DNA of 64,000 nt from an uncultured Chloroflexia bacterium (GTDB taxonomy: Bacteria; Chloroflexota; Limnocylindria; Limnocylindrales; CSP1-4), in the NCBI GenBank assembly GCA_963712745.1, contig CAVQJC010000002.1, positions 170,237 to 234,236 on the forward strand. The letters run 5' to 3'. Of the stretch, positions 29,490-46,854 are shown in pieces. Every line of letters begins with the position of its first letter. The first letter of the stretch is position 1. A program made the position numbers and the translations under genes. Below the pieces are notes generated by a model. The model was not told where the DNA came from and made no database searches. It saw only the letters and a program-made list of their open reading frames with translations.

Positions 29490-30489
29490 TCAGCCTCGGT
29501 GGCGCCGTCTGAGGATGTCGAGGTAGACCGCGAGGATGACGATGATGCCGGTGATGGTGATCTGCCACTCCTGCGGCACCGACAGCAGGCGCAGGCCGTT
29601 CGTGAGCACGCTGATGATGAAGGCGCCGATGACGGTGCCGAAGATCGAACCTTCGCCACCGCTCAGCGAGGTGCCGCCGATGACGGCCGCGGCGATGGCA
29701 TCGAGCTCGTAGCCGAAGCCCTCGGCAGGCTGGGCCGAGTTGAGTCGCGCCGCGAGACCACGCCGGCGAGGCCCGCGAAGAGGCCGCTGAGCACGTAGGC
29801 CGAGGCCTTGTAGCGCATCGCGCGCACACCGGAGAGGCGGGTGGCTTCCTCGTTGCTGCCGATGGCGAAGATGTAGCGACCGAGCACCGTCTTGCGACAG
29901 GATGAAGCCGGCCACGATGGCCACGCCGAAGAAGACGAGCACGAGGTTCGGCAGAGGGAGGTCGAAGCCGGGGTCAGCGAATCGACGATGGAGCCCATGA
30001 AGGTCTCGGTTGAACTCGGGATTGTTCGGGAAGTAGACCGGGCGAACGTCGGAAAGGACCAGCGCCAGGCCGCGGGCGACGTTGAGCATGCCCAGCGTGG
30101 CGATGAACGGCGGCAGTCCGACGCGAGCGATGAGCGTGCCGTTGATGAGACCGATCAGGCCGCCGGCAAGGACGCCGACGACGATGCCGATGGGCACCGG
30201 CAGGCCGGATTGGTGATGAACGACCGCGGTCGATGACCGCGGAGAACGTCATGTTCGTGCCGATCGAGAGGTCGATGCCGGCGGTGATGATGACGAAGGT
30301 CACGCCGATGGCGAGGATGCCGACGACCGAGGTGGCCAGGATGATGTTGATGACGTTGTTGGACGTCAGGAAGAACGGGGAGGCGATGGTGAAGAAGATG
30401 ACGATGATGACAAGCGCACCCAGCGCCAGGACACGCTGGACCGCGTCGGACCTGAAGATGGACCCGGCTCGTTTCAGTGCGCTCTGCAT
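29490..30489 (-). CDS. Sugar ABC transporter permease (RbsC-like), frameshifted
   Basis: [57 protein letters not shown]. Confidence 0.88.
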
Positions 30490-32036
30490 CTATGCCCTCG
30501 ACCAAGTCCTTGACTTCGGCGACCGACTCGCGCTGCGTCGCGAGCGTCATGATCTTCTCCTGGTCCGCTTCGCGGCGGTCAGCTCGCCGGTGAGTCGGCC
30601 CTCGCACATGACGATGATGCGGTGGCTCATGCGCAGGATCTCCGGCAGCTCCGAGCTGATCATGATGATCGACTTGCCCTGCGGCGGCCAGCTCGTTGAG
30701 CAGGTGGTAGATCTCCTGCTTGGCGCCGACGTCGATGCCTCGCGTGGGCTCATCGAAGATGAGGATGTCCATCTCCGCGGTCAGCCACTTGGCGACGACG
30801 ACCTTCTGCTGGTTGCCGCCCGAGAGGTTGCGCGCCTTCTGGCCGATGCCCGGCGTCTTGATGTCGAGCTCCTCGACGCGCTGCTCGGCGGCCGCCTTGG
30901 TCTTGGCGGTATCGACCTGGCCGAGGCGACTTGAGGAACTGTCTGAACGAGGCCAGGGCGATGTTGGTCTCGAGGTCCAGGCCCAGGGTCAGGCCGTGTC
31001 GCTTGCGGTCCTCGGAGAGATAGGCGATGCCCATCCCGCACGGCCTGGGCCGGGTTGGTGATCTCCGCGACCTCGCCGTTGACGAGGATCTCGCCGGCGT
31101 CCTTGCTGGTCGGCCCCGAAGATGAGCCTGGCCAGTCTCCGTGCGACCGGCGCCGACGAGCCCGGCGACACCGAGGATCTCGCCGCGGCGCAGCTCGAAG
31201 GAGACGTCCTGGACTGCGCGGCCCGCGCGAGAGGCCCTTGACCTCGAGGACCACGTCCGGCTCGGCTAGGTCCGCCTCGGCACGTGGGGCGCCTCTTCGT
31301 AGATGGTGCGGCCGACCATCATCGAGATGATCTCGTCGATGATCACGGCGCCGATGTCGACCGTGTCGACGTGCTGGCCGTCACGCATGACCGTGACGCG
31401 GTCGGCGATCTCGCGCAGCTCCTCGAGCCGGTGGCGAGATGTGGACGATGCCCTTGCCCTGCTCTCGCAGCGAGCGGATGATGCGGAAGAGTTCCTCGAT
31501 CTCGGTCTCGGTCAGGGCGGCGGTCGGCTCGTCCATGATGAGCACCGACGCATCGAGCGACAGCGCCTTGGCGATCTCCACCATCTGCTGCTGCGCGACC
31601 TTGAGGTCCATGACCTTGGCGGTAGGGTCGAGCTTGAGGCCGAGCCGGTCGACGAGCTCGGCGGTCTTTCGGACCTGTGCCTTGTCGTCGACCGTGAAGC
31701 CGAGGCGGCCGCGCGGCTCACGGCCCAGGTAGATGTTCTGGGCCACCGTGAGGTGGGCGCCAGCACCAGTTCCTGGTGGATCATGCTGATGCCGAGGTCA
31801 CGACCGGCGCGCGGGTTGGGAACCTCGACCTGCCGGCCCTGGACCTCGATGGTGCCGGCGTCCTTCTGGTAGACGCCGGTGAGGACCTTCATCAGCGTCG
31901 ACTTGCCAGCGCCGTTCTCACCGACCAGCGCGTGCACCTCTCCGGGGCGCAGCTCGAACCGGGCATCCCGCAGCGCCTGCACGCCGGGGAAGGCCTTGTC
32001 GATGCCCTGCATCCGGATGAGTAGGTCGGCCGCCAT
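30490..32036 (-). CDS. Two-domain sugar ABC ATPase (RbsA-like), frameshifted
   Basis: [50 protein letters not shown]. Confidence 0.88.
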
Positions 32037-32058
32037 CCGGGTCCTCGCTCAGACGGAA

Positions 32059-32105
32059 TGGACGAACGGGACTGCCGCTCGGATCGCGGCAGTCCCGTCG
32101 GTCCA
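32059..32105. terminator. Intercistronic hairpin after the SBP gene
   Basis: ACGGGACTGCCGC-tcggatc-GCGGCAGTCCCGT; typical SBP mRNA stabiliser or attenuator position. Confidence 0.7.
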
Positions 32106-32123
32106 GTGACTCAAGGGTTCGGG

Positions 32124-33118
32124 CTACTCGTAGAGGACCGCCTTGACCTCGCGGAGTCGATGGTTCGACGCATCGGCCCAGATGAAGCCGGTGTCGATCA
32201 TGGGCGGCACCTCCATGCCCTGGAGCGCCATGGCAGCCGCTTCGACGCACTTGGCGCCGATGCCGACCGGGTTCTGCTGGACCGCACCGGCCATGGTGCC
32301 GTCCTTGATGGCGTTGATCTGGAACTGAGGCCAGAGTCATAGCCGATGAGCGACGAAGTCGCCGACCATATCGAGTTCGGTGACCGCGTTGATGACGCCG
32401 ATCGCGGAGCCCTCGTTGGCACCGAAGAAGCCCTTGATGTCCGGGTTGGCCGTGATCATGCCCTTGCGATGTCGGTCGACTGCATCTGGTGCTCGCCCGG
32501 CGCCGTAGTCGGGGCCGACGATCTCGATGTCGGGATACATCTCGGCCATACGGTTGACGAAGCCGTCGCGGCGGTCGATGCCGGTGCGGCTGGTCGAGTC
32601 GTGGACGATGACACCGACCTTGCCGGCGCCACCGATGAGCCTCGGCCATCTTGTCGGCGGCCAGCGCGGCGGCAGCGATGTTGTCTGGTCGCGGCGGTGG
32701 TGATGGGAATGTCACCCTCGACGCCGGAGTCGAAGGCGATGACCGGGATGCCGTCGGCCTGGATCTTCTCGAGCAGCGGCAGCGCAGCCTGGCTGTCGAG
32801 CGCGGCGAAGCAGACCGCGTCCGGATTCTTCTGGTACTCGGCCTGCGAGCATGTCGATCTGGATCTGGACGTCGCGACTCGGTCGGCGGGCCGTGAAGTT
32901 GACGTCCATGTTCAGCTCAGCAGCCTTCTGCCTCGGCGCCAGGCCGTGACGGCCTGCCAGAACTGGTGCTGGAAGCCCTTGGAGACGATGGGCACGTAGA
33001 TGTCGGCGTCGTCGGCGAACGCATCCGGGCCGGCCATCTCGTCCTGGGCCACGGCCGGGGCTGCCATCACAGCCGCCAGCGCGATGGCTGAAGTCAGCGC
33101 GAGTGCACGTGTCTTCAT
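32124..33118 (-). CDS. Sugar ABC substrate-binding protein (RbsB-like), heavily frameshifted
   Basis: Signal peptide MKTRALALTSAIALAAVMAAPAVA; IVSKGFQHQFWQAV, NPDIKGFFGANEGSA, IGYDSG; AAGGAGG RBS. Confidence 0.85.
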
Positions 33119-33170
33119 GGTCCTCCTTCGTTGTCCTCTCAGCCCGAGGCACGGATCAGAACGGCCGTGC

Positions 33171-33202
33171 GCATAGGTTTGCGGGCTGTCCCATGCACTA
33201 TA
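33171..33202 (-). promoter_or_regulatory. -10 box with LacI-type operator(s)
   Basis: GCATAGGTTTGC (33171) and weaker GCTGTCCCATGC (33185); TATAGT on the minus strand at 33197-33202. Confidence 0.5.
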
Positions 33203-33339
33203 CCCGCGACGCGGACGCCCGCGCCGGACGGAGGGCACATTGGCAGGGTCCGTCCGGACCTGCAGTCAGGGCCATCCGGCGGTGTTCATGGGAACGTTCC
33301 CAGGGGTGTTGGCGCTGGTACCAGCGGGTGTGCCGGCGG

Positions 33340-35718
33340 TCAGCCAACTGGCAGCCAGAGCAGGCTCACCTCGTCGACGCTGATATCGGTCTTCTCCAGC
33401 CCTATCTCGATGGGCTCGATGGCCAACGCCTTCTCGTTCCACTCCTGGTCGATCTCGGCGATGGCTTCCCCCAGGTCCTGCTCGAGGTCCTCGAGCGCGA
33501 GGTTCTTCTCCTCGATGCGGTTGTCGATGGTGCGGATGCGCTGCGCGGACGACTGCCCGCGGGTGGCCGCCCGCCCCGCCGAGCGGGCGATGGTAGTCGT
33601 GCTGGTACGTCCGCCGAGGATGCTGCCGAGCACCGAGCTGCCGATGGAGATGAGATCCTGGTTGCGCTGGTTGCGCACGTCCGACTGCAGTTCGTCGATG
33701 CGGTCCTCGTACTTGGCGATGGCGACCCGCAGGTTGTCCATCCTGGCGGTGAGCCGTTCGCGGATCTTCGAGAGCTCCTCGTCCCTGGCCTCGTCGGCAG
33801 CGCCACGACAGCGCGCGGCGAAGGCAGCTTCCGACTCGCCGATGCGGGAGTAGAGCTTGAGCTCGCGGTTGGCCTGCAGCGTGATCGTGCGGGCGCGGTG
33901 CAGATTGTCCTTGAGGCCTGCGGTGACCGAGCGGAAGAACGCCTTGTCGGCGATGGGCGCATCGGTCAGCAGGTAGGTCGCCGCTTCGGGTGGGTCGCGA
34001 CGCAGGTCACGGCTGTCGTAGTCGACATCGATGGCCTCTCCCCAATCGACGTCCCTGCTCCCCAGGCGCACGAAGGCCTCCCATTCGACGGTCTCGCGCA
34101 GGGCGGCCTTGGTGTCGTCGAAGAGCATCTGCACGCGCGTCACCAGCGACGGCGTCAGGCGGGCGCCGCCCGGCACGGCGCCGACCTCGGCCGCCCAGGG
34201 AGCGGCGACATCGAGGTAGTACACGTCCACACCATCGGCGACCTCGGGCGCGACGTTCGTCTCGTCCTCGGCCAGCTCGGGCGTCGGCGGCTCGGGGGCG
34301 ACGGGCGCCCCAGCGGCATCGGCCACCGCTCCGGCCGCGGGTCCCGCCGCCCGGTCGCCGGTGAGTCGCTTGATCTGATCGCGCGTCAGGGGGCCGGCCA
34401 GGTAGGACATGGCCCAGCGCGTGGAGAACCGCTGCGGCGCGTCCGTGCGCGTGCTGTGGAAGAGGAACTGGCGCTTGTCCAGCGCGGAGATGGTCGCGTC
34501 GGTCGCAGCCTTGTCGACCTCCCCTGCGGCAGAGGTCATGCCCTCGAGCAGGCGTGCCTTGTCGCGCTCGGTCTGCAGCCGGCCGATCATCCAGGTGCCG
34601 GCATTGCTGAGCGCCTTGTAGTCGAGGTCGACCGGGTTCTGGGTGGACAGCACCATGCCCACGCCGTGCGCACGAGCCTGCTTGAGGATGGTGAGGATGG
34701 GCTTCTTGGCCGGCGGCACCGCGGTCGGAGGTACGTAGCCGAAGACCTCGTCCATGTAGATGAGCGCGCGCAGCTCGCCGGTGCCCGACTGCCGGCGGGT
34801 CCAGGTGACCATCTTCGAGAGGACCATGGTGACCACGAACATGCGCTCGGCCTCGGAGAGGTGCGAGACCGAGATGATCGCCGCCTGGGGCAGACCGTCG
34901 GCCTTGAGCATGGCCTCGATGTCGAGCGGACGACCCTGGTTCCAGGAGGCGAACGAGGGCGAGGCCAGCAGGCCGTTGAGCTTCAGGGCCAGTGCTGCAC
35001 GATCCCCGGGCGGGTAGAAGGTATCGAGGTCGAGCACACCCAGCTTGCGCATGGGCGGGTCCTGGATCTGGCCGATGAGCGTGGCCAGGTCCAGGTCCTG
35101 ACCACCCGACCAGCTGCGTTCGACGAGGTTGGCGATGAGGATGTGCTCGGGGCTCGCCAGCGGATCGGCCTCGACGCCGACCAGCCCGAGCAGGCCGGAA
35201 GTGAAGCCCTCGACCTCGTCGCGCAGGGTCTCCAGGTCGTCGGCCGAGCCTGGAGCCTTGAGCGAGCCGATGAGGTCGAGCGGTACGCCCGCGGTGGAGC
35301 CGGGCGTGTAGATGGTGAAGCCGGCCGCCTGGCGGAGGCGTGCGATACGGTCGGGCGTGATGCCGCTGCGGGCGAGACCGTCGCGCCAGGTCTGGGCGGT
35401 CTTCTCTGCGAGCTCGTCGGGCGTGATGCCCTCACGAGCCGCAGCGGCCTCCTCGATCCAGGGCCGGAAATCGGACGGACGCAGCTGGGGGAAGGTCAGC
35501 AGCAGGTTGCCCATGTCGCCCTTGGGGTCGATGACCAGGCAAGGGATGCCCTGAAGCAGCGCGTCCTCGAGCAGGTCGATGCCCAGGCCCGTCTTGCCCG
35601 AGCCGGTCATGCCCACGATGACGCCGTGGGTGGTCAGGTCGGCGGGATCCACCGTCAGTGGCCCCTCCGCATCGACACGCTGGCCGATGTACAGCTCGTT
35701 CGGGTCGATGCCGGTCAT
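33340..35718 (-). CDS. HerA/FtsK-superfamily ATPase (DUF87/DUF853-like) with C-terminal coiled coil
   Basis: THGVIVGMTGSGKT, IDPKGD, IYTPGS, IYMDEVFG, STQNPVDLDYK; 792 aa, intact. Confidence 0.85.
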   Translation of the reverse strand: MTGIDPNELYIGQRVDAEGPLTVDPADLTTHGVIVGMTGSGKTGLGIDLLEDALLQGIPCLVIDPKGDMGNLLLTFPQLRPSDFRPWIEEAAAAREGITPDELAEKTAQTWRDGLARSGITPDRIARLRQAAGFTIYTPGSTAGVPLDLIGSLKAPGSADDLETLRDEVEGFTSGLLGLVGVEADPLASPEHILIANLVERSWSGGQDLDLATLIGQIQDPPMRKLGVLDLDTFYPPGDRAALALKLNGLLASPSFASWNQGRPLDIEAMLKADGLPQAAIISVSHLSEAERMFVVTMVLSKMVTWTRRQSGTGELRALIYMDEVFGYVPPTAVPPAKKPILTILKQARAHGVGMVLSTQNPVDLDYKALSNAGTWMIGRLQTERDKARLLEGMTSAAGEVDKAATDATISALDKRQFLFHSTRTDAPQRFSTRWAMSYLAGPLTRDQIKRLTGDRAAGPAAGAVADAAGAPVAPEPPTPELAEDETNVAPEVADGVDVYYLDVAAPWAAEVGAVPGGARLTPSLVTRVQMLFDDTKAALRETVEWEAFVRLGSRDVDWGEAIDVDYDSRDLRRDPPEAATYLLTDAPIADKAFFRSVTAGLKDNLHRARTITLQANRELKLYSRIGESEAAFAARCRGAADEARDEELSKIRERLTARMDNLRVAIAKYEDRIDELQSDVRNQRNQDLISIGSSVLGSILGGRTSTTTIARSAGRAATRGQSSAQRIRTIDNRIEEKNLALEDLEQDLGEAIAEIDQEWNEKALAIEPIEIGLEKTDISVDEVSLLWLPVG

Positions 35719-35812
35719 GGGTGCCTCACCTCGGTCGCCGGCACGCGGGCACGTGCCGTGCGCTCAACGTAGCCAATTCGTGCGCGCAAGACGAGTGACG
35801 GGCGAGGCCGCG

Positions 35813-37792
35813 TCAGCCCTGGCTGGTGTTGCGCTCCGCCTCAGGAGTGGTGGCCTCGTCCTCCTCGCGGCGTCCGACCGCGATGATGGCCGGGATGCGG
35901 GCCGGGCCACCCTCGCCATCGAGGAGCGCGCCCGGGGTCGAGGCGATGACGCCGATCGAGACGCGGAAGCCCGCACGTCGTTGGAGACGCGGCATCAGGG
36001 TCCCCTGCCCCACCGGGGCTTCGTTGGGGAACCACTTCAGCCACTCCTCGTAGAAGACGTCGAAGTCCGCACCCTCGCGCAGCGACCAGTTGGCCCAGAC
36101 GACCTCGTCGAGCGAGCTGCCGTGCTCCTCCAGCGTGGTCTTGAGGTTGGCCATGCACTGGCGGGTCTGGTCCTTGAGCTCGCCACTGACGGTCATGCCG
36201 GTCTCGGGGTCGACCGGGCCGATGGACGAGACGTAGACCATGCCGCCGGCGCGTACGGCCCGGCCGCGGCCGACTTCGGCGGCCGGCCGGGTCAGCGATT
36301 CGCCCATGCCGCCGATTCCCCAACGGGACTTGCCCGCGTGGGTCGGCTGAGCGGGGTCCTCGGGCGGGATGCCGTACTCGCCCTCCGGCAGGTGGAGGCC
36401 GCGGATCTGGAAGGTGGGCATGAAGGTCGGCCGCAGGCCGGTGGGCTTGAGATACCCCTGGATCTTGCCGTCGACCACGCCGGTCTGCTCGAACTTGAAG
36501 ATCTCCTGGGTCAGGATGTCGTCATCCTCGACGCCGTAGACCTCGGTGATGCTGATGATCTTGCGAGAGCCGTCGCGCAGCCGGGCGGTGTGCACGATGA
36601 CATCGACCGCCGAGGCGATCTGCTCGCGGATGGCCCGCATCGGCAGCTCGTAGCCGGTCATGAGGATCATCGTCTCGAGGCGGCGAAGCATGTCCCGTGG
36701 CGTGTTGGCGTGGCCGGTGGAGAGCGAGCCTTCCTGTCCCGTGGTCATGGCCTGGATCATGTCCAGCGCCTCACCGGCACGACACTCGCCCACCACGATG
36801 CGGTCGGGACGCATGTGCAGGGCATTGCGCAGCAGGTCGCGGATGGTGATCTCACCCTCGCCTTCGAGGTTGGCCGGGCGGGCTTCCAGCGTGACCACGT
36901 GTGTCTGACCCAGCAAGAGCTCTGCGGCGTCCTCGATGGTGATGATGCGTTCTTCCTCGGGGATGAACGACGAGAGCACGTTGAGCGTCGTGGTCTTGCC
37001 CGAGCCCGTTCCGCCACTGAGGAACACGTTCAGCCGAGCCTCGACGCAGGCCTTGAGGAATTCGAACATCTCCGGGGTGGCGGTGCCGAACTCGGTCAGG
37101 TCCTCCACGGTGAAGCGCGTGGCGAACTTGCGCACGGTGATGACGGGACCGACCAGCGAGAGCGGCTTGATGATGCAGTTGACACGGGAACCGTCCGGCA
37201 GGCGTGCATCGACGCGCGGGTTGGACTCGTCGATGTGACGGCCAAGGGGCGTGATGATGCGGTCGATGACGTTGAGCACATGTTCGTCGTTACGGAAGCT
37301 GACGGACGACTTCTCGAGGCGGCCGGCACGCTCGATGTAGACCTGGTAGGGACCGTTGACCATGACCTCGGTGATGGTCGGGTCGGAGAGCAGCGGTTCG
37401 ATGGGTCCGAAACCGGCGACCTCGTCCACGACGCCCTGGACCAGTCGGCTGCGCTCGTCGCGGGTGAGGCTGAGGTCGTTGTCGGCGATGAACTCGGCAA
37501 CGAAGTCATCGATCTCGCCGGACAGCCTCTGACGCACGCCGGCGGGGTTGGACAGGTCGATGCGCGACGACAGGGCGTTGGCCACGGCCTGCTCGACGCG
37601 GGTGCGGATCTGCCGGAAGCTCTCCTCGCGCTTGGAGAAGGTCGGGGACGCGACGGGTGCGGGGGCCGGATCGACCCGCGGCGCAGCAGGCACGACCGCG
37701 CTCGACGCTGGGACTCCGGGTGTGACCGGAGCACCGGGCGCGGGCGGCGCTTCTCCACGCTTCGCAGCTTCGACTCGTTCGAGCAGTGACAT
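35813..37792 (-). CDS. CpaF/TadA secretion ATPase fused to a C-terminal RidA/YjgF-like domain
   Basis: [56 protein letters not shown]; then [21 protein letters not shown]...[24 protein letters not shown]. Confidence 0.88.
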
Positions 37793-38017
37793 CAGCACTT
37801 CCAATCGGGTCCCGTCCGCGGGACGATTGGATGGCAGCATACCCCGGCCCCGGTAGTCCAGACCCCTGAAGGACCACTCCGAACCGGACCTTTCGCTGGT
37901 CCACGTCGCGGAGCCGCAACGAAACGGACCACCGGACGGTTGACGGCCGGGACTGTCGGGCCCACCGGCATACGCGTGGTGTGGCGTGCGCGTGGAGCGG
38001 CGTGCGCGGAGCAAGGC

Positions 38018-38045
38018 GGAGCGCCGGGCTGAGGCCCGGCGCTCC
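38018..38045. terminator. Perfect 12-bp hairpin downstream of the RTX gene
   Basis: GGAGCGCCGGGC-tgag-GCCCGGCGCTCC; second hairpin at about 38064-38082. Confidence 0.6.
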
Positions 38046-38110
38046 CGGCCTTGAGAGGGGTGTCGGGCCTCGGCGAGGCCCGTGATGAGGTTTGTCGGTC
38101 GGGCTGACGG

Positions 38111-38806
38111 CTACGGGTTCTTGTGCTCGCAGTCGCGTGCGACGCGGTCCCTGCCATCGGCAAACACCGTGTCATCGCCGGGACCGCAGATGATGACGTC
38201 GCGCTGGCCATCGTCGGCGTAGATGACGTCGTCACCTCGCCCTGCCCGAACCTTGTCGCGGCCTGGGCCCAGGTCGATCTTGTCGTCGCCCGCGCCTCCT
38301 CGCACACGATCATCGCCGTTCCCGGCGCGCACGCCGTCAGCGCCAGAGCCCAGGCGGATGGAGTCACCCCTGTCACCGCCGTAGACGATGTCGTCGCCGG
38401 AACCAGCCCAGATGACGTCGCGGCCATCCTCACCGGCAAGCTTGTCGTTGCCGGCGCCGCCGCGGATGAGATCTCCCTGGTCGCCGCCCCAGACTTCGTC
38501 ATCGCCGGCGCCGGCGATGACCTTGTCGCGCCCGGCGCCCGCGTAGATATCGTCATCGCCGGTGCCGCCGCGAACGAGGTCGCTCCTGTCGTCGGCGTAG
38601 ATCTCGTCGTTGCCGCCGAGGCCGATGAGCTTGTCACGATCCCCGGGTTCAGCCTTGTAGTAGTCGTCTCCCGCGGTGTCGATCCAGACGTTGTCGAACC
38701 CGTGCGGCCAGAAGTGCGGACCATGGGCGGCCGCGACAGACGAGAACACGAGCAACAGCGCGGCACTCGTGGCGGCCGTCACGCCGAGGTTTCGAAGCTG
38801 GGGCAT
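38111..38806 (-). CDS. Secreted calcium-binding RTX (GGxGxD) repeat protein
   Basis: Sec-type signal peptide, many GGxGxDxL nonapeptides, C-terminal ICGPGDD...ARDCE; AGGAGG RBS. Confidence 0.88.
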   Translation of the reverse strand: MPQLRNLGVTAATSAALLLVFSSVAAAHGPHFWPHGFDNVWIDTAGDDYYKAEPGDRDKLIGLGGNDEIYADDRSDLVRGGTGDDDIYAGAGRDKVIAGAGDDEVWGGDQGDLIRGGAGNDKLAGEDGRDVIWAGSGDDIVYGGDRGDSIRLGSGADGVRAGNGDDRVRGGAGDDKIDLGPGRDKVRAGRGDDVIYADDGQRDVIICGPGDDTVFADGRDRVARDCEHKNP

Positions 38807-38891
38807 ATCGCGAGTCCTCCTGCGTTTCCGAGCGGCCGGCTCGAGCACGGCGCCGATCCTCCTGTCCGCTCGCGTGGAACGTTCCCGAGAG

Positions 38892-38931
38892 TATACGACA
38901 AGTTGTCGTATATCTACGACGCGTTGTCGTA
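38892..38931. promoter_or_regulatory. Twin BlaI-type operators TACGAC-N5-GTCGTA
   Basis: TATACGACAAGTTGTCGTATA (38892-38912, perfect arms) and TACGACGCGTTGTCGTA (38915-38931). Confidence 0.85.
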
Positions 38932-38977
38932 CCATGGCTTGATGCGCGCTATAGTGGGTGAAGCAGTGGGAGGCACC

Positions 38978-39370
38978 GTGCCGACACGACAACCCCTCGC
39001 CAACGCCGAGCTCGCGATCATGGAGCTGCTCTGGGACGAGGACCGCCTGACGGCGCGTCAGATGCGCGAGCGCCTCTATCCCGGGGCCGAGAAAGCCCAG
39101 CACGGGACCGTCCAGCGGCTGCTGCAGCGCCTCGAAGAGAAGGGCTACGTGGCTCGCGACCGCGATCTGCCGGTGCACCTCTTCAGCGCAGAGATCAGCC
39201 GCGAGGCCTACGGCAGCGGCCAGCTCGAGTCGATCGCCGAGCGCCTCACCGCGGGGTCGTTGGCACCCCTGGTCACACACCTCGTGGAGCAGCACCGCAT
39301 CCCGCCCGACGAGATCGAACGGCTTCGCCGCATCCTCGACGCGTCCTCCGAAGCCACCGGGGACGAGTGA
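38978..39370 (+). CDS. BlaI/MecI/CopY family repressor
   Basis: LANAELAIMELLW...TVQRLLQRLEEKGYV...GSLAPLVTHLV; GGAGG RBS. Confidence 0.9.
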   Translation: MPTRQPLANAELAIMELLWDEDRLTARQMRERLYPGAEKAQHGTVQRLLQRLEEKGYVARDRDLPVHLFSAEISREAYGSGQLESIAERLTAGSLAPLVTHLVEQHRIPPDEIERLRRILDASSEATGDE

Positions 39371-40692
39371 GCGGGGTCATCGTCCAGCTCGCGCTGGGCA
39401 ACGTGGCGGCCTCGGCTGCGCTGGCCGGTGTCGCCTGGCTCGTCCACCGCAGCGGCCGGTACCCCAGCCTGGCCCACCTCCTGTGGGTCCTCTCGCTGGT
39501 CAAGCTGATCACTCCGCCGTTGCTGTTGCTGCCGCTCATACAGGCAGAGTCCGCGCCGTCGGGGGCCACGAGCTCCACCCCGGCCACGACCTGGCTGGCC
39601 CACGAGGGCGTGGCCCTGCTGCTGGCCGTCTGGGCGCTGGGGAGCGTCGTGGTGCTGGCGCTGTCGATGTTCCGCATCGTGCGCTTCGACAGCCTGCTGC
39701 GGTCGTCGACCGCGCCGGCATCAGCTGGCATCCAGGCCACGGCCCAGGAGGCGGCCGGCCGGCTGGGCCTGCGCAAAGTACCGACCGTGTACCTGGCCAG
39801 TGACCGGATCGCGCCCATGACCTGGTGGGCCGGGGGGCGTGTGTGGGTCGTGCTGCCGGGTGACCTGCCTCAGGCGATCACACCGCCCGAGCTGCGCTGG
39901 GTCATCGCTCACGAGCTGGCCCACGTGAAGCGGCGGGACCATCTGGTGCGCTGGATCGAGTGGCTCACCTGCGTCACGTTCTGGTGGAACCCCGTGTCCT
40001 GGTGGGCGCGCCGCAATCTCCGCCACGACGAGGAGGCGAGCTGCGATGCGCTGGTGCTCGAACGCCTGGGCGCACAGCCCCGCGCGTACGCGGGAGCGTT
40101 GCTGGCGGTGGTGGAGATGCTGGCCGGACCGACGTCACGTCCGCCGGCGGTGGCGACGGGCATCGACGGCGGTTCACTCGAGCGCCGCTTCAGCCGCATC
40201 CTGGCCACGGACCGGGTGGCACGCGCACCCCGGATCCTGGCCCTCGGGGCACTCTCGATGGCGGCGGTCATCATGTCGCTCGGGATCGGCGGGGCCACCG
40301 GCACTCCTGAACCCTCGGGGTCAACGGGGTCGGCTGGTGTCATCGGGTCCACGCCGGGCGTCGCGGTCACCTCGGATGCGGGCGCCGACGAGTACCGGCC
40401 CGTGGCCTACGTGGCCGAACGGTCGGGTGCGGCTGGGAATCGAGCCGAGCGCGAACTGAAGGCCGCACGCCGGGCACTGGCCAAGGCCGACCGCGCGGTC
40501 GCGAACGTCGACGTGGCGCCGGCAAAGGCCGCGCGAAAGGTGAAGGAGGCCAGGGCCGCCGTGCACCAGGCGACGCGCGCCGTGGAACGGCTCGATCCCT
40601 CAGCGAGGGGTATGGAGCAGGCCCTGCGCTCCATCAAGCGCGACCTGCGTGAGGTCGTACGCGCGCTGAAGGCCGCGGGAACCCCGCGCTAG
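39367..40692 (+). CDS. M56 metallopeptidase (BlaR1-like) without penicillin-binding sensor domain
   Basis: TM segments, IAHELAHVKRRDH, WWNP, EASCD; C-terminus is a Ser/Gly linker plus Ala/Arg helical region. GTGA overlap with blaI. Confidence 0.9.
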   Translation: MSGVIVQLALGNVAASAALAGVAWLVHRSGRYPSLAHLLWVLSLVKLITPPLLLLPLIQAESAPSGATSSTPATTWLAHEGVALLLAVWALGSVVVLALSMFRIVRFDSLLRSSTAPASAGIQATAQEAAGRLGLRKVPTVYLASDRIAPMTWWAGGRVWVVLPGDLPQAITPPELRWVIAHELAHVKRRDHLVRWIEWLTCVTFWWNPVSWWARRNLRHDEEASCDALVLERLGAQPRAYAGALLAVVEMLAGPTSRPPAVATGIDGGSLERRFSRILATDRVARAPRILALGALSMAAVIMSLGIGGATGTPEPSGSTGSAGVIGSTPGVAVTSDAGADEYRPVAYVAERSGAAGNRAERELKAARRALAKADRAVANVDVAPAKAARKVKEARAAVHQATRAVERLDPSARGMEQALRSIKRDLREVVRALKAAGTPR

Positions 40693-41522
40693 GGTCCTTC
40701 TCCCTCGGCCTCCTTGGCGGTCTCGGCCTCCTTGGCGGTGGCTCCTGTACCGGGCCGAATGCCCGCGAAGCGATGGAGGCGCTCGGTCGTGTCAGGCCCA
40801 CTCAACGGATGGCCGTGGCCGCCGGCCACGACTCCGGGTTCGAGGTCCGCAAGCGTCTTGATGGATGCCCGAGCGGCCACGCGGTCGGCGGTCGTGTACC
40901 AGGGCGGGCCCGACAGGCCCTGGCGGCCACAGAACGCGCCGGCGAGCGTGTTGACCTGGAGGGTGACGAGGGCGTCACCGGTGATGAGCACGCGGTCGGT
41001 CGGTCGGAAGTAGGAGACGTGACCCGGGGTGTGGCCCGGCGTGGGCACCCAGCACCAATCAGGCAGGTGTGGGACCTCGCCGCTGGGCCCCAGCACGTCG
41101 ACCACCGCAGCGAGGCTGTTCCGTGCGAGCATCGCGTCGCGGCGGCGCCGGCCGAGAGCGCTGATGGCCGGCAGGATCAGGTAGCGGTCCATGGGTCCGG
41201 CGTTCCGCCACATGGCACCGAAGCTGCCCCTGGCGATGGCCAGCTCGGCGGGATGGACAAGGACCCGGCATCCCCAGCGCTCGGCGAGCGCGCGAGCTGC
41301 CCCCGAGTGGTCGGGGTGGTGGTGCGTCAGGAGGATGGCTGCGGGCCTGGCGTCGCGGCCGAAGAGCGACTCAGCGGCCTGCTCGATCCGGGCCAGGTCG
41401 CTCGCCCAACCGGCGTCGACGAGGAGCCACGAAATGCCGCTGGCCACGAAGTAGACGTTGGTTTGGCTGCGGCCGTGCGGCCCAAGGCAGTAGACGCCGT
41501 GCGCGATCTCCGTGGCCTGCAT
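40689..41522 (-). CDS. MBL-fold metallo-hydrolase (cytoplasmic)
   Basis: LVDAG, THHHPDHSG, TPGHTPGH, TGDAL, GHG. Confidence 0.88.
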   Translation of the reverse strand: MQATEIAHGVYCLGPHGRSQTNVYFVASGISWLLVDAGWASDLARIEQAAESLFGRDARPAAILLTHHHPDHSGAARALAERWGCRVLVHPAELAIARGSFGAMWRNAGPMDRYLILPAISALGRRRRDAMLARNSLAAVVDVLGPSGEVPHLPDWCWVPTPGHTPGHVSYFRPTDRVLITGDALVTLQVNTLAGAFCGRQGLSGPPWYTTADRVAARASIKTLADLEPGVVAGGHGHPLSGPDTTERLHRFAGIRPGTGATAKEAETAKEAEGEGP

Positions 41523-45817: not shown

Positions 45818-46648
45818 CTAGTCGGTCCTGTCGCTCGAGTTCGACTCGACCGCGTTCATGGTGGCGGGCAGCACCAAGACCTCGACGGGTTCGGTCCGGC
45901 CCCGGACCGCCACGGTGCGGCGCTCGAAGTCGGCCTCACTGATCCCCGCCGCCGCCGCACCGCGGACCGAGACGAGCAGCTCGCCGGCCGCGGCCTCACT
46001 CGCGAGTCGTGCCGTGGTGTTGACCACGTCGCCGAGCGCGGTGAAGTCGCTCACGAGGTCATCGGTCGCGGTCGAACCGACGAACGCCTCGCCGGTGTGC
46101 ACGGCGGCGCCGATGGGGATCGGGCCCGACGGGGTGGCTTCGGTGCGGCCGGCTCGCGCGAGGAGCCGCTGTCCCGCGGCCACCGCAGCCGCGGTGTGGC
46201 GCTCACCGCTGACCCCACCGAAGAAGAGCCCGATGACCTCGTCGCCCACGAACTTGTCGACGATGCCGCCGGTAGCGACCACGGCGTCGGAGGCGAGACG
46301 ATAGAAGCGATCGAGAAAGGCTCGGAACTCGGTCGCCGAGAGGCGCTCGCCGATGCCGGTGGAGCCCCGGATGTCCGCGAACAGCAGGCTCACCGGGATC
46401 TCCGCGCCCTGCACGCCCTGCTTCTGGAGGCCCTTGATACAGAAGTTGCACATCAGGGGATTGCCCGCGTAGCGGGCGAAGCCCAGGTGCCGAAGGACGG
46501 CACCGCCGGGTCCCGCGAACGGCGCGGCGCAAATCTTGCAGTTGGGCCCACGGGGGACGTGCGAGAAGACGCGACGCATCACGGCGGTTCCCCGGTCCTG
46601 GCCGGTGAGGAACGCCTGCATCTCCTCCTCGGGCGTCAGCTTGACCAC
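45818..46648 (-). CDS. Class III adenylate cyclase with N-terminal CxxC...CxxC module
   Basis: CKIC/CNFC; LFADIRGST, DKFVGDEV, DFTALGDVVNTTARL (Lys/Asp pair indicates adenine specificity). Confidence 0.88.
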   Translation of the reverse strand: MVKLTPEEEMQAFLTGQDRGTAVMRRVFSHVPRGPNCKICAAPFAGPGGAVLRHLGFARYAGNPLMCNFCIKGLQKQGVQGAEIPVSLLFADIRGSTGIGERLSATEFRAFLDRFYRLASDAVVATGGIVDKFVGDEVIGLFFGGVSGERHTAAAVAAGQRLLARAGRTEATPSGPIPIGAAVHTGEAFVGSTATDDLVSDFTALGDVVNTTARLASEAAAGELLVSVRGAAAAGISEADFERRTVAVRGRTEPVEVLVLPATMNAVESNSSDRTD

Positions 46649-46854
46649 GATCGCCGGACTCTAGCGACGCGAGGGCCGGCCGGCAATAGGTTGGCAACAG
46701 CTTTCCGAATGGAGGTCGGCAGCCAGCGTGAACCGTATGTCCATGGCCCTTGACACCCAACACGATGGTGAGTTCGTGTCGACCACGGGCGCCTGGCTCG
46801 ATATCGGAGACCCACTTGTGTCAGGCTCCAGTCTGGTCCCAACCTGGTGTCCCG

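What the first reader, a model, noticed from the sequence alone, without database searches (positions are those of the whole stretch)
33340..37792. Orphan TadA/CpaF ATPase fused to a catalytically dead RidA domain, paired with a HerA-like ATPase
Seen: an uninterrupted 659-aa frame with a full CpaF ATPase followed by a Rid/YjgF-like domain (~35940-36270). The usual PAR(S) motif reads PVGQ and VEIE reads VSIG. A co-oriented 792-aa HerA/FtsK-type ATPase starts ~95 bp downstream. No flp, tadB or tadC is in the window. Known: RidA needs the Arg of PAR for imine deaminase activity, forms trimers and binds small metabolites at subunit clefts; CpaF ATPases are hexamers. Inference: a metabolite-sensing Rid module could cap and gate a pilus/secretion motor, perhaps acting in trans on a tad locus elsewhere or with the HerA-like protein as a DNA/protein translocase. 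I know of no description of this architecture.
Basis: partly seen in the sequence, partly recalled or inferred. Interest (0 to 1): 0.8.

Follow-up and report, generated by a model that had tools for sequence, protein, structure and literature searches.

The report
Pilus motor ATPase with Rid cap
A soil and sediment bacterial lineage carries a second copy of its pilus motor ATPase with an inactive-looking Rid domain attached to the face that such motors are reported to use for pilus retraction; the neighbouring HerA-like gene looks like a later insertion, not a partner.

Summary
The minus strand at 35813-37792 encodes a 659-aa CpaF/TadA-type ATPase joined in frame to a Rid-fold domain. In that domain PAR reads PVG and VEIE reads VSIG. 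A 792-aa HerA-like ATPase starts 94 nt downstream.

The fusion is not an assembly error. 118 of the 120 best database hits have both domains. 69 of 80 related genome loci are of the fused type. It was found in only one family of Limnocylindria (Chloroflexota), in 45 of 60 sampled genomes. Those genomes also keep a normal tad locus elsewhere.

The fused gene stands alone: tadB/C, cpaB, tadZ and flp are near 0 of 69 fused loci.

The pairing with HerA is not supported. It appears in 1 of 52 fused loci with enough flank and in 1 of 80 HerA-like loci. In the window the HerA-like gene sits as an insertion between the fusion and a sugar ABC operon.

My reading, at about 40%: this is an alternative Tad motor. 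Its platform-contact residues on the N-terminal face are invariant. Its C-terminal "retraction" face is capped by Rid domains and shows relaxed constraint, which would make it a one-way or gated motor.

I rate it a new variant of a known kind. My searches found no description of it.

The parts
35813..37792 (-). cpaF-rid gene: 659-aa CpaF/TadA-type ATPase fused to a Rid-fold domain (stop codon 35813-35815)
   Evidence: ORF and translation; Pfam and NCBIfam. M1 and L3 at the ATG of 37792 are invariant in 25 homologs. 118 of 120 best hits share the architecture.
37418..37792 (-). N-terminal part (residues 1-125): low-complexity Pro/Ala stretch, then helices, as in the disordered region plus three-helix bundle of CpaF
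   Evidence: Helices at 54-77, 83-105 and 111-126 in the AF2 model, at pLDDT 59-77. Aligns to C. crescentus CpaF from residue 28 or 69. It is the least conserved part of the fused clade: 0.57 against 0.85 in canonical CpaF.
36581..37417 (-). T2SSE ATPase core (residues 126-404) with Walker [10 protein letters not shown] (260-268), Walker B/Glu DRIVVGE (330-336) and His box TGH (359-361)
   Evidence: Pfam T2SSE 6e-60. PDB CpaF 8rkd/8rjf E 1e-119 over residues 69-466. The motifs are 66 of 66 conserved.
36371..36580 (-). [quoted passage not shown]
   Evidence: Aligns to the C-terminus of C. crescentus CpaF. The charged residues E459, K460 and E462 are each 34 of 35 in canonical CpaF and variable in the fused clade.
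36290..36370 (-). Linker (residues 475-501) with conserved GIPPEDP, K488, R490 and W491
   Evidence: Column counts over 118 homologs. pLDDT below 50 in the AF2 model. Identical contigs of runs X1 and X2 cover it.
35942..36289 (-). Rid-fold domain (residues 502-617). PAR is replaced by P-V-G (G595, then Q596), VEIE by VSIG (S612, G614), and YSQA by G-R-G-R-A.
   Evidence: Pfam; PDB sequence matches. AF2 model pLDDT 88.3. Foldseek top hits are all RidA/YjgF. Column counts.
35816..35941 (-). Variable C-terminal tail (residues 618-659), absent from about half of the homologs
   Evidence: Gaps in 65-77 of 118 rows; pLDDT below 50.
35719..35812 (-). 94-nt spacer with a short hairpin (GGCACG..CGTGCC) and the ribosome-binding site of the next gene
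   Evidence: Read directly from the sequence. The spacer to the HerA-like gene is about 600 nt in L008 and about 250 nt in L137.
33340..35718 (-). 792-aa HerA-like P-loop ATPase (DUF87/HerA_C at the N-terminus, Walker A GMTGSGKTG at 36-44, coiled-coil-like C-terminus). An accessory gene inserted here.
   Evidence: Insertion shown by collinearity with L006-L009.
38018..38045 (-). Perfect 12-bp hairpin with a 4-nt loop, between the upstream RTX-repeat ORF and the fusion gene. It is likely the terminator of the upstream gene, so the fusion would have its own promoter region.
   Evidence: Read directly from the sequence. The consensus scan did not list it because it has no T tract.

Best explanation
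SHOWN.
- The gene encodes an intact, conserved paralog of the Tad-pilus motor ATPase CpaF/TadA. A Rid-fold domain follows its complete C-terminus after a linker of about 27 residues.
- The fused form arose once.
- It was found only in one family-level group of Limnocylindria (Chloroflexota).
- It co-exists with a canonical flp-cpaB-tadZ-cpaF-tadB-tadC locus elsewhere in the genome.
- It sits alone among unrelated housekeeping genes.
- The Rid domain descends from standalone Rid proteins that still have the catalytic Arg. It has since lost that Arg and the Tyr17 equivalent, while gaining its own invariant residues. It is therefore very unlikely to be an imine deaminase, yet it is under strong selection.

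INFERRED.
- The protein is an alternative motor for the same Tad machine. It would dock on the TadB/TadC platform with its N-terminal (extension) face, whose contact residues are invariant.
- The six Rid domains, probably as two trimers, would sit over the C-terminal face. Recent work on Caulobacter CpaF says that face must reach the platform for retraction.
- The paralog would thus be a one-way (extension-only) motor, or one whose C-terminal face is gated by the state of the Rid cap. The canonical CpaF would keep both directions.
- The HerA-like gene downstream is a lineage-specific insertion and not part of the system.
For: Real and conserved:
- 118 of 120 listed hits carry PF00437 and PF01042, at 63-100% identity.
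- 69 of 80 genome loci are of the fused type.
- Contigs of other runs agree with the window, with no indel listed.

ATPase intact:
- Walker A, Walker B/Glu and the His box are 66 of 66.
- E 1e-119 to solved C. crescentus CpaF.

One origin, faster evolution:
- 36 fused rows form one clade (SH-aLRT 100, stem 0.53).
- End branches are about 0.1-0.35, against about 0.003-0.14 for canonical CpaF of families f1 and f4.

Distribution:
- A fused Rid domain (E 2e-43 or better) was found in 45 of 60 f1 genomes, and in 0 of 7 (f2), 0 of 66 (f3), 0 of 66 (f4) and 0 of 1 (f5).
- 43 of the 44 fused genomes listed have a second CpaF match.
- The window's own genome has cpaF-tadB-tadC on contig C6.

Stands alone:
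- TadB/C, CpaB, TadZ and Flp are near 0 of 69 fused loci.
- They are near 11, 9, 11 and 9 of 11 canonical loci.
- The recurrent neighbours of the fusion are LeuRS, a YgjP peptidase, LytR, RNase PH, CbiMQ and ABC transporters.

Rid domain:
- AF2 model pLDDT 88.3. Foldseek top hits are all RidA/YjgF; the best is 2dyy, E 3.6e-9, TM 0.72.
- G595 and Q596 are 118 of 118.
- 17 of 17 fused rows lack the Arg; 10 of 10 nearest standalone relatives (38-49% identical) keep P-A-R and YSQA.
- Arg105 is essential for imine hydrolysis (PMC4433059, passages read).

Faces of the hexamer:
- Residues were mapped through the alignment to PDB 8rkd.
- Extension-face contacts named by Yen et al. 2025 (PMC12019362, passages read) are G204, R205, D208, E331 and G334. 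They correspond to window G184, R185, D188, E310 and G313. All are 66 of 66 in fused and 35 of 35 in canonical CpaF.
- The retraction-face R387 corresponds to window R366. It is R in 35 of 35 canonical but 10 of 66 fused loci (P 19, K 18, A 8 and others).
- E459, K460 and E462 of the C-terminal motif are each 34 of 35 in canonical CpaF and variable in fused.
- Whitfield et al. 2026 (bioRxiv 10.64898/2026.02.24.707734, abstract and passages read) report that R387A and a C-terminal mCherry fusion on C. crescentus CpaF abolish visible retraction but not extension. They also report that single-orientation CpaF orthologs degenerate in these same regions.
Against: - The window's own protein keeps R366, as do 70 of 118 of its closest database homologs. 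The relaxation is therefore a property of the clade, not of this gene.
- The RL(K/R)DGSRK hairpin is fully conserved in the fused clade. I take it to be the beta13-beta14 turn, but the passages I read gave no residue numbers. If I am right, the C-terminal face is not simply decaying.
- No interaction with TadB/TadC was tested, and nothing links the gene to pili except homology and co-occurrence.
- 15 of 60 f1 genomes lack the fusion, some in genera where others have it (g5: 5 of 9). It is dispensable.
- The full-length AF2 model was poor (pLDDT 53.7; ATPase domain 27-43), so it gives no picture of where the Rid domain sits.
- The inversion model of CpaF rests on a preprint and on AlphaFold3 models.
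- The pore-loop tip differs between the paralogs: canonical K, A, P against fused E, E, T at C. crescentus positions 333, 335 and 337. This could mean a different partner.
Confidence: 0.4

Rival explanations
1. Metabolite-gated motor. The Rid domain binds a small molecule at its subunit clefts and passes that state on to ATPase activity or hexamer symmetry. This does not exclude the cap model; it would be the cap's control input.
For: The domain is strongly conserved although catalytically disabled. It has its own invariant polar and aromatic residues: R511 (R/K), W566, W569, E583, W584, Q596, R605, R606, R610. Relative to standalone relatives it carries a 2-residue insertion, QRRAGF. Rid pockets bind carboxylates in solved structures (PMC4433059, passages read).
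Against: The carboxylate-anchoring Arg and the Tyr17 and Glu120 equivalents are gone, so the known pocket is not kept. No ligand, pocket model or metabolic gene neighbourhood points to a molecule. The conserved residues could equally form a protein interface.
Confidence: 0.2
2. A purely structural add-on. The Rid domain serves only as an oligomerisation or stabilising module for the hexamer, with no effect on direction or regulation.
For: Rid proteins are typically trimers (PMC4433059, passages read). Three Rid domains fused in tandem occur in nature (PMC4433059), so the fold is used as a building block.
Against: Canonical CpaF forms hexamers without it (PMC12019362, passages read). A pure clamp does not explain the relaxed constraint at R366 and in the C-terminal motif, nor the fixed pore-loop changes.
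Confidence: 0.15
3. A motor for something other than the Tad pilus. The paralog has been recruited to another export, uptake or remodelling task with partners encoded elsewhere.
For: No pilus gene lies near any of 69 fused loci. It evolves faster than canonical CpaF. The pore-loop tip and the N-terminal helices differ from the canonical paralog. It scores below the cut-off of the nearest NCBIfam model, TIGR03819 (307 against 373).
Against: No alternative platform was found: the own genome has only the two T2SSF matches of the tad locus. The platform-contact residues are identical to those of canonical CpaF. The full CpaF architecture, N-terminus included, is kept.
Confidence: 0.15
4. A two-ATPase translocase. 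The fused CpaF and the HerA-like ATPase work together on DNA or protein.
For: The two genes are co-oriented, 94 nt apart. The same order is seen in L008 and L137. Nine contig lengths are shared between the hit lists of the two proteins, four of them short (7917, 17660, 20243, 44818 nt). This suggests the pair recurs in a sublineage; it is indirect, because I could not fetch those contigs.
Against: - 1 of 52 fused loci with at least 3 kb downstream has the HerA-like gene.
- 1 of 80 HerA-like loci has any CpaF-like gene; L138 is too short to tell.
- 0 of 60 other f1 genomes have the HerA-like gene, including one of the same genus.
- The close relatives L006, L007 and L009 are collinear but lack it.
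- The spacer varies from 94 to about 600 nt.
- The HerA-like family occurs on its own at 43-64% identity in varied metagenomes, with no conserved neighbour.
Confidence: 0.05
5. Assembly artefact or pseudogene: a lost stop or a frameshift joined two genes.
For: The neighbouring ABC transporter genes in the same window are frameshifted, so this assembly or lineage does carry broken genes.
Against: The same fusion occurs in 118 database clusters from several sources and in 69 loci of other genomes. The linker itself is conserved. Independent contigs agree, with no indel.
Confidence: 0.01

Closest known systems
CpaF/TadA, the Tad (tight adherence) pilus motor ATPase (C. crescentus CpaF; PDB 8RKD, 8RJF, 9E24-9E29)
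   Same: Full-length homology over residues 28-466 (E 1e-117 to 1e-119). About 61% identical to the genome's own canonical CpaF. Same catalytic motifs and the same platform-contact residues on the N-terminal face.
   Different: Carries a folded domain of about 115 residues after the C-terminus. Encoded away from flp, cpaB, tadZ and tadB/C. Evolves faster. The R387 equivalent and the charges of the C-terminal motif are not conserved. The pore-loop tip is changed.
Engineered CpaF-mCherry C-terminal fusion in C. crescentus (Whitfield et al. 2026, bioRxiv 10.64898/2026.02.24.707734)
   Same: A folded domain attached to the C-terminus of CpaF. In the preprint this blocks the C-terminal face and abolishes observable retraction while pili still extend (passages read).
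   Different: That fusion is artificial and replaces the only motor. Here the fusion is natural, conserved, likely oligomeric, and sits beside an unmodified paralog. No assay exists for it.
Dedicated extension and retraction ATPase pairs of type IVa pili (PilB and PilT)
   Same: Two paralogous hexameric motors share one platform, and one of them is often encoded away from the pilus operon. The latter point is from my own knowledge, not from a call. Both faces of the ATPase ring are used in the models cited.
   Different: In PilB/PilT the retraction motor is the stripped-down one and uses an AIRNLIRE motif. Here the extra paralog is the larger one, and the face proposed for retraction is the one that is covered.
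RidA/YjgF/YER057c/UK114 (Rid) family: archetypal RidA and the Arg-less Rid4-Rid7 subfamilies (Niehaus et al. 2015, PMC4433059)
   Same: Same fold. Like Rid4-7, it lacks the Arg needed for imine hydrolysis.
   Different: It is fused to a motor ATPase. The Arg is replaced by Gly (Trp in Rid4 and Rid7, variable in Rid5 and Rid6), and the Glu that Rid4-7 keep is Ser here. Its nearest relatives are Arg-bearing standalone proteins, so the loss is recent and independent of Rid4-7.
HerA/FtsK-superfamily ATPases with DUF87 and HerA_C (YjgR-like) domains, for the 792-aa neighbour
   Same: The N-terminal P-loop region passes the DUF87 and HerA_C cut-offs. Weak matches to the HerA core at residues 280-430.
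   Different: About 800 aa with a long C-terminal half that matches no family. No NurA, Sir2 or other known HerA partner is nearby. The family is unnamed ('DUF87 domain-containing protein').

Membership tests
PilT/VirB11-like secretion ATPases (Pfam T2SSE), CpaF/TadA branch | T2SSE domain above the curated cut-off | tested here: met
   203.3 bits against 24.9
PilT/VirB11-like secretion ATPases (Pfam T2SSE), CpaF/TadA branch | Walker A, Walker B with catalytic Glu, and His box intact | tested here: met
   [16 protein letters not shown] and TGH are 66 of 66 in the fused clade
PilT/VirB11-like secretion ATPases (Pfam T2SSE), CpaF/TadA branch | Closest solved relative is CpaF, over N-terminal helices, NTD and ATPase domain | tested here: met
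   8rkd/8rjf E 1e-119; 9e24 E 7e-117 over residues 28-466. The next hit is an archaeal GspE at 1e-41.
PilT/VirB11-like secretion ATPases (Pfam T2SSE), CpaF/TadA branch | Encoded in a tad locus with tadB/tadC, tadZ, cpaB and flp | tested here: not met
   0 of 69 fused loci, against 9-11 of 11 canonical loci
PilT/VirB11-like secretion ATPases (Pfam T2SSE), CpaF/TadA branch | Drives pilus extension or retraction; binds the TadB/TadC platform | not testable with these tools
   Needs an experiment, or a model of hexamer plus platform, which is above the size limit here
NCBIfam TIGR03819 (TadA family conjugal transfer-associated ATPase) | Score above the curated cut-off | tested here: not met
   307.4 bits against 373.15. 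It is the best-scoring model, but the protein is not a member.
Rid (YjgF/YER057c/UK114) family | Ribonuc_L-PSP domain above the curated cut-off | tested here: met
   51.8 bits against 27.3
Rid (YjgF/YER057c/UK114) family | Chorismate-mutase-like Rid fold | tested here: met
   AF2 pLDDT 88.3. The listed Foldseek PDB hits are all RidA/YjgF/L-PSP entries, with probability 1.00 and TM 0.66-0.75.
RidA subfamily (imine/enamine deaminase) | Arg105 (E. coli numbering), which binds the substrate carboxylate | tested here: not met
   Gly in 118 of 118 homologs. The alignments to 2dyy and 2csl place PVG opposite PAR.
RidA subfamily (imine/enamine deaminase) | Tyr17 and Glu120 equivalents | tested here: not met
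   YSQA reads G-R-G-R-A and VEIE reads VSIG. The standalone relatives keep Tyr but already have Ser for Glu.
Rid4-Rid7 subfamilies (Arg-less Rid proteins) | Arg replaced by Trp or variable, with Glu kept; assignment by NCBI CDD models | not tested
   No CDD models were at hand. By residues it does not fit (Gly and Ser), and its nearest relatives carry the Arg.
HerA/FtsK-type ATPases (for the 792-aa neighbour) | DUF87 or HerA_C domain above the cut-off | tested here: met
   30.2 against 23.2 and 25.1 against 22, but only residues 10-73 match
HerA/FtsK-type ATPases (for the 792-aa neighbour) | Known partner nearby (NurA, Sir2, DUF4297 or a conjugation gene) | tested here: not met
   No PADLOC hit in the neighbouring ORFs. 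No conserved neighbour in 80 loci.

The most novel reading that the evidence does not exclude
Limnocylindria split the two directions of a Tad pilus between two motors by a route not seen before. The canonical CpaF can flip and use both faces. The CpaF-Rid paralog is locked to extension because two Rid trimers plug its retraction face. The plug could be released or tightened by a ligand bound at the remodelled Rid clefts. Metabolic state would then set the direction of a pilus motor.
Probability: 0.12. Interest if true: 0.85.

Novelty: new variant of a known kind. Interest (0 to 1): 0.6.

Why it matters
How a single Tad ATPase both extends and retracts pili is an open question. A 2026 preprint proposes that the hexamer flips and uses its C-terminal face for retraction. 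Here nature has attached a folded, probably trimeric domain to that same face, kept an unmodified paralog beside it, and maintained both in most sampled genomes of one bacterial family. This gives a ready-made comparison for testing the inversion model.

It would also be a Rid-fold domain that has lost its catalytic residues and is attached to a motor, which bears on the unexplained Arg-less Rid proteins.

For annotation, these genes are currently labelled plain 'pilus assembly protein CpaF'.

Tried and rejected
- Complex prediction, three copies of the Rid domain (residues 495-622, alignment A1). Verdict 'no answer': score 0.41 against a mark of 0.42. This is no evidence either way on trimer formation. 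The queue was full, and the same job was accepted.
- Full-length AF2 model from a 25-row alignment. Mean pLDDT 53.7, with the ATPase domain at 27-43. It could not show where the Rid domain sits, and I ran no fold search on it.
- Consensus promoter and terminator scan of 33000-38400: 0 promoter-like sites, and 2 terminator-like sites against 1.4 expected. Nothing usable.
- PADLOC. The fusion matched only one candidate family, weakly, over the Rid part (PD-T4-2_B, E 2e-9). The HerA-like protein matched mad8 (E 5e-12) and HerA models. No neighbouring ORF matched, so no defence system was recognised.
- The large open frames around the standalone Rid genes in L086 and L087 (717 and 643 aa) first looked like other fusions. 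They are read-through of upstream sequence in high-GC DNA; the Rid genes have their own starts.
- ORFs 32912-33238, 32712-33152, 32346-32999 and 31918-32715 were at first treated as small unknown genes beside HerA. They are frames of a frameshifted sugar-binding protein gene.
- Run search. No run held half of the sampled words, and only short Logan contigs could be laid. No listed identical piece covered 36406-36437. Depth and habitat were not interpreted.

Full report
**What is in the sequence.**

The window is high-GC DNA (66-71%), so both strands carry long open frames. Codon-position GC marks the minus-strand frames as the real ones: GC3 is 0.86 and 0.90. There are two co-oriented genes.
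- 35813..37792 encodes 659 aa from an ATG. Its first residues, M1 and L3, are invariant in 25 homologs.
- 33340..35718 encodes 792 aa.
- They are 94 nt apart. The spacer holds a short hairpin and a GAGGTGAGG ribosome-binding site for the second gene.
- Upstream, a perfect 12-bp hairpin at 38018-38045 separates the first gene from an RTX-repeat ORF.

**Domains.**

The 659-aa protein has two Pfam domains:
- T2SSE at residues 126-404 (E 6e-60).
- Ribonuc_L-PSP at residues 502-617 (E 1e-13, 51.8 bits, cut-off 27.3).

Its best NCBIfam model is TIGR03819, but it scores below the cut-off (307 against 373). Its closest solved relative is C. crescentus CpaF, with E 1e-119 over residues 69-466.

The Rid part alone matches solved RidA proteins; the best is PH0854 (2dyy), E 2.4e-14. 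Those alignments place PVG opposite PAR and VSI opposite VEV. A model of the Rid part built on 27 sequences reached pLDDT 88.3. Its listed Foldseek matches in the PDB are all RidA/YjgF/L-PSP entries.

**Is the fusion real?**

Yes.
- 118 of the 120 best database hits (63-100% identical) carry both PF00437 and PF01042. One of the 118 is the window's own protein. The other two hits are longer CpaF-like proteins without a Rid domain.
- A pattern scan of one genome per species returned 80 loci. 65 match beyond residue 600. Two more (L014, L029) match to residues 619 and 622 in split pieces. Two (L011, L075) run into a contig end inside the linker. That makes 69 of the fused type; 11 are ordinary CpaF genes.
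- The linker is itself conserved: GIPPEDP, K488, R490, W491.
- Short contigs from two other public runs are identical to the window across 35870-36405, and no indel was listed. One of those runs may be the window's own sample, and 36406-36437 had no listed identical piece.

**Where it occurs.**

The record titles call the organisms Candidatus Limnocylindrales or Limnocylindria, Chloroflexota, or 'uncultured Chloroflexia'. A few short contigs carry other labels (Verrucomicrobiia, Pseudonocardiales, Saccharimonadales, Anaerolineaceae) but nest inside the same clade. I take these as binning or labelling noise, which I did not check.

I searched a sample of 201 genomes of the class with the linker plus Rid part.
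- Strong matches (E 2e-43 or better, 50-70% identity, inside open frames of 360 aa or more) occur only in the window's family, f1: 45 of 60 genomes besides the window's own.
- There were none in f2 (0 of 7), f3 (0 of 66), f4 (0 of 66) or f5 (0 of 1).
- The negative tallies for f3 and f4 include nine genomes that the tool marks as unpublished.
- Presence is patchy within f1, for example 5 of 9 genomes in genus g5 and 0 of 3 in g10.
- In a search of 1.84 billion cluster representatives with the Rid part, the closest matches were fragments plus one full-length 630-aa protein. After those came standalone Rid proteins and three-domain Rid proteins. Only the best 150 of 2465 matches were shown.

**Origin.**

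I built a tree of the ATPase part from the window, 35 fused loci (every second one of the 69; 34 left out) and all 47 non-fused CpaF-like rows.
- The 36 fused rows form one clade, with SH-aLRT 100 and a stem of 0.53.
- That clade sits in an unresolved three-way split with the canonical CpaF of f1 plus f4 and that of f3 plus f5.
- End branches in the fused clade are about 0.1-0.35, against about 0.003-0.14 in the canonical f1/f4 clade, so the paralog evolves several times faster.

The nearest relatives of the Rid part inside the class are standalone genes of about 125-160 aa, 38-49% identical. They share QTRQCL and NEEWxRWFP with the fused domain. They keep YSQA and P-A-R-Q-G, and they already read ISI(A) where RidA has VEIE. 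In alignment A3, 17 of 17 fused rows lack the Arg and 10 of 10 standalone rows keep it; five references with in-frame stops were left out.

So the domain came from an Arg-bearing Rid protein. After fusion it lost the Arg and the Tyr and gained a two-residue insertion (QRRAGF). Arg105 is essential for imine hydrolysis, and the Arg-less subfamilies Rid4-7 are thought not to be imine hydrolases (Niehaus et al. 2015, PMC4433059, passages read). The genome has two ordinary Rid genes elsewhere, on C1 (139.6 bits) and C11.

**Context.**

The genome is a 4.2-Mb assembly in 20 contigs, 84.6% complete. It has a canonical cpaF followed by two T2SSF genes on contig C6, and weak Flp-like matches on C7.

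| Tad gene within the flanks | Fused loci (of 69) | Canonical loci (of 11) |
|---|---|---|
| TadB/C | 0 | 11 |
| CpaB | 0 | 9 |
| TadZ | 0 | 11 |
| Flp | 0 | 9 |

The recurrent neighbours of the fused gene are unrelated: LeuRS, a YgjP-like peptidase, LytR_cpsA_psr, RNase PH, a LOG-like protein, MazG, CbiM/CbiQ, sugar ABC transporter parts, and adenylate cyclase-AAA proteins. 43 of the 44 fused genomes listed have a second CpaF match, so the fusion adds to the normal motor and does not replace it.

**The HerA-like neighbour.**

The 792-aa protein passes the DUF87 and HerA_C cut-offs only over its first ~75 residues, and matches HerA cores weakly at residues 280-430. It belongs to a widespread family of about 800 aa that carries no functional name. 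Members are 74-84% identical in Limnocylindrales-type records and 55-60% identical in records titled Acidimicrobiales, Gammaproteobacteria and others.

Evidence against a functional pair:
- It follows the fusion in 1 of 52 fused loci that have at least 3 kb downstream (L008).
- 1 of 80 HerA-like metagenome loci has any CpaF-like gene (L137); L138 is too short to tell.
- 0 of 60 other f1 genomes have the protein at E 1e-10, including one genome of the same genus.
- It has no conserved neighbour of its own.

The window is collinear with L006, L007, L008 and L009. The shared order is BlaR1-BlaI, an RTX-repeat ORF, the fusion, and then a sugar ABC operon. The HerA-like gene lies between the fusion and the operon only in the window and L008.

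Evidence for a recurring pair:
- Nine contig lengths are shared between the two hit lists, four of them short. The insertion therefore seems to persist in a sublineage.
- I could not fetch those contigs.

I read the adjacency as an insertion, not a partnership.

**How it may work.**

The ATPase motifs are intact: 66 of 66 in the window plus the 65 loci that match beyond residue 600.

I mapped C. crescentus numbering through the 8rkd alignment. The construct index plus 79 gives P386 and R387 as in the preprint.

| Face and C. crescentus residue | Window residue | Fused (of 66) | Canonical (of 35) |
|---|---|---|---|
| Extension face: G204 | G184 | 66 | 35 |
| Extension face: R205 | R185 | 66 | 35 |
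| Extension face: D208 | D188 | 66 | 35 |
| Extension face: E331 | E310 | 66 | 35 |
| Extension face: G334 | G313 | 66 | 35 |
| Retraction face: R387 | R366 | 10 | 35 |

- The extension-face residues are those that Yen et al. 2025 (PMC12019362, passages read) name as platform contacts (counts).
- The canonical set is 35 rows. Twelve more distant paralogs from f3 and f5 genomes were left out.
- At R366 the fused clade reads P 19, K 18, R 10, A 8 and others.
- E459, K460 and E462 in the C-terminal motif are each 34 of 35 in canonical CpaF and variable in the fused clade.
- Mean column conservation is close between the clades in the NTD (0.85 against 0.89) and in the ATPase core (0.90 against 0.92). 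It is lower in the fused clade in the N-terminal helices (0.57 against 0.85) and in the C-terminal motif (0.78 against 0.88).

Whitfield et al. 2026 (bioRxiv 10.64898/2026.02.24.707734; abstract and passages read) report three things. [quoted passage not shown] R387A and a C-terminal mCherry fusion abolish visible retraction. CpaF orthologs predicted to use only the extension orientation have degenerated at the alpha11 N-terminus, the beta13-beta14 turn and the C-terminal motif.

The natural fusion places a folded domain at that same C-terminus and shows relaxation at two of the three regions. I therefore propose a motor that uses the same platform through its N-terminal face, and whose C-terminal face is capped, or gated, by Rid domains.

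Points against this reading:
- The window's own protein keeps R366, as do 70 of 118 close homologs.
- The RL(K/R)DGSRK hairpin, which I take to be the beta13-beta14 turn, is fully conserved.
- No binding or structural evidence exists.
- The pore-loop tip differs between the paralogs.
- The inversion model itself rests on a preprint.

I put the whole reading at about 0.4. Its descriptive core is above 0.95.

**Known or new?**

Full-text searches found nothing that describes this architecture or Tad systems of this class:
- CpaF with RidA.
- Limnocylindria with pili.
- L-PSP with pilus assembly, ATPase and fused.
- Limnocylindria with Tad.

The single hit was seen only in the listing. Niehaus et al. 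mention Rid fusions in general and three-domain Rid proteins, but none with a secretion ATPase in the passages I read; I did not open their supplements. Source annotations call these genes plain 'pilus assembly protein CpaF'. I rate it a new variant of a known kind.

Noticed in passing
window 29493-33118, minus strand: A sugar ABC transporter operon (periplasmic binding protein, ATPase, permease) downstream of the HerA-like gene. It is collinear with intact genes in L006, but in the window it is split over several frames in all three genes. Either it decayed after the insertion or the assembly has indel errors.
   Followed up: partly
window 38111-39295, minus strand (the true start is probably near 38900): An ORF with 7 RTX calcium-binding nonapeptide repeat matches (E 8e-26), directly upstream of the fusion and co-oriented with it. 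It ends at a 12-bp hairpin. It is conserved at 38-53% identity in L006-L008 only. Its first ~110 codons overlap blaI on the other strand and are probably not coding.
   Followed up: partly
G000:C1:512290-514669 (loci L133-L136): A second copy of the HerA-like gene in the same genome. It is about 60% identical, with three stop codons, and its pieces lie in different frames. It looks like a pseudogene.
   Followed up: no
window 38960-41522: A BlaI-like repressor (38960-39370, +), a BlaR1/M56 peptidase (39367-40692, +) and a convergent metallo-beta-lactamase-fold gene (40689-41522, -). The BlaI-BlaR1 pair is conserved upstream of the fusion in L006-L008.
   Followed up: no
G182:C2:17719-19662 and G182:C9:202588-204393; G194:C64 and C79: Two genomes of the family hold two copies of the fused gene. 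In G194 both copies are cut by contig ends.
   Followed up: no
window residues 312, 314 and 316 of the fusion (nt about 36845-36859): The tip of the extended pore loop differs in a fixed way between the paralogs. Canonical CpaF reads K, A, P (30-34 of 35); the fused clade reads E, E, T (38, 66 and 61 of 66). Together with H326 for R and T350 for N, these are among only 8 positions fixed differently in the two clades.
   Followed up: partly
loci L006, L014, L020, L024, L026, L027, L032, L033, L083; window 45818-46660: Large adenylate/guanylate cyclase plus AAA-ATPase proteins recur beside the fused gene in about nine loci, and a cyclase-domain ORF lies 8 kb away in the window. They may simply be abundant in these genomes.
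   Followed up: no
run X11 on window 36438-37832: A metatranscriptome library holds four short contigs identical to the ATPase part of the gene. This is a weak hint of transcription, because DNA carry-over cannot be excluded.
   Followed up: no
proteins P0146, P0150, P0157 and others: Many proteins of 370-460 aa with three tandem Rid domains appear among the matches to the Rid part. They correspond to the '3x-RidA' covalent trimers mentioned by Niehaus et al. 2015.
   Followed up: no
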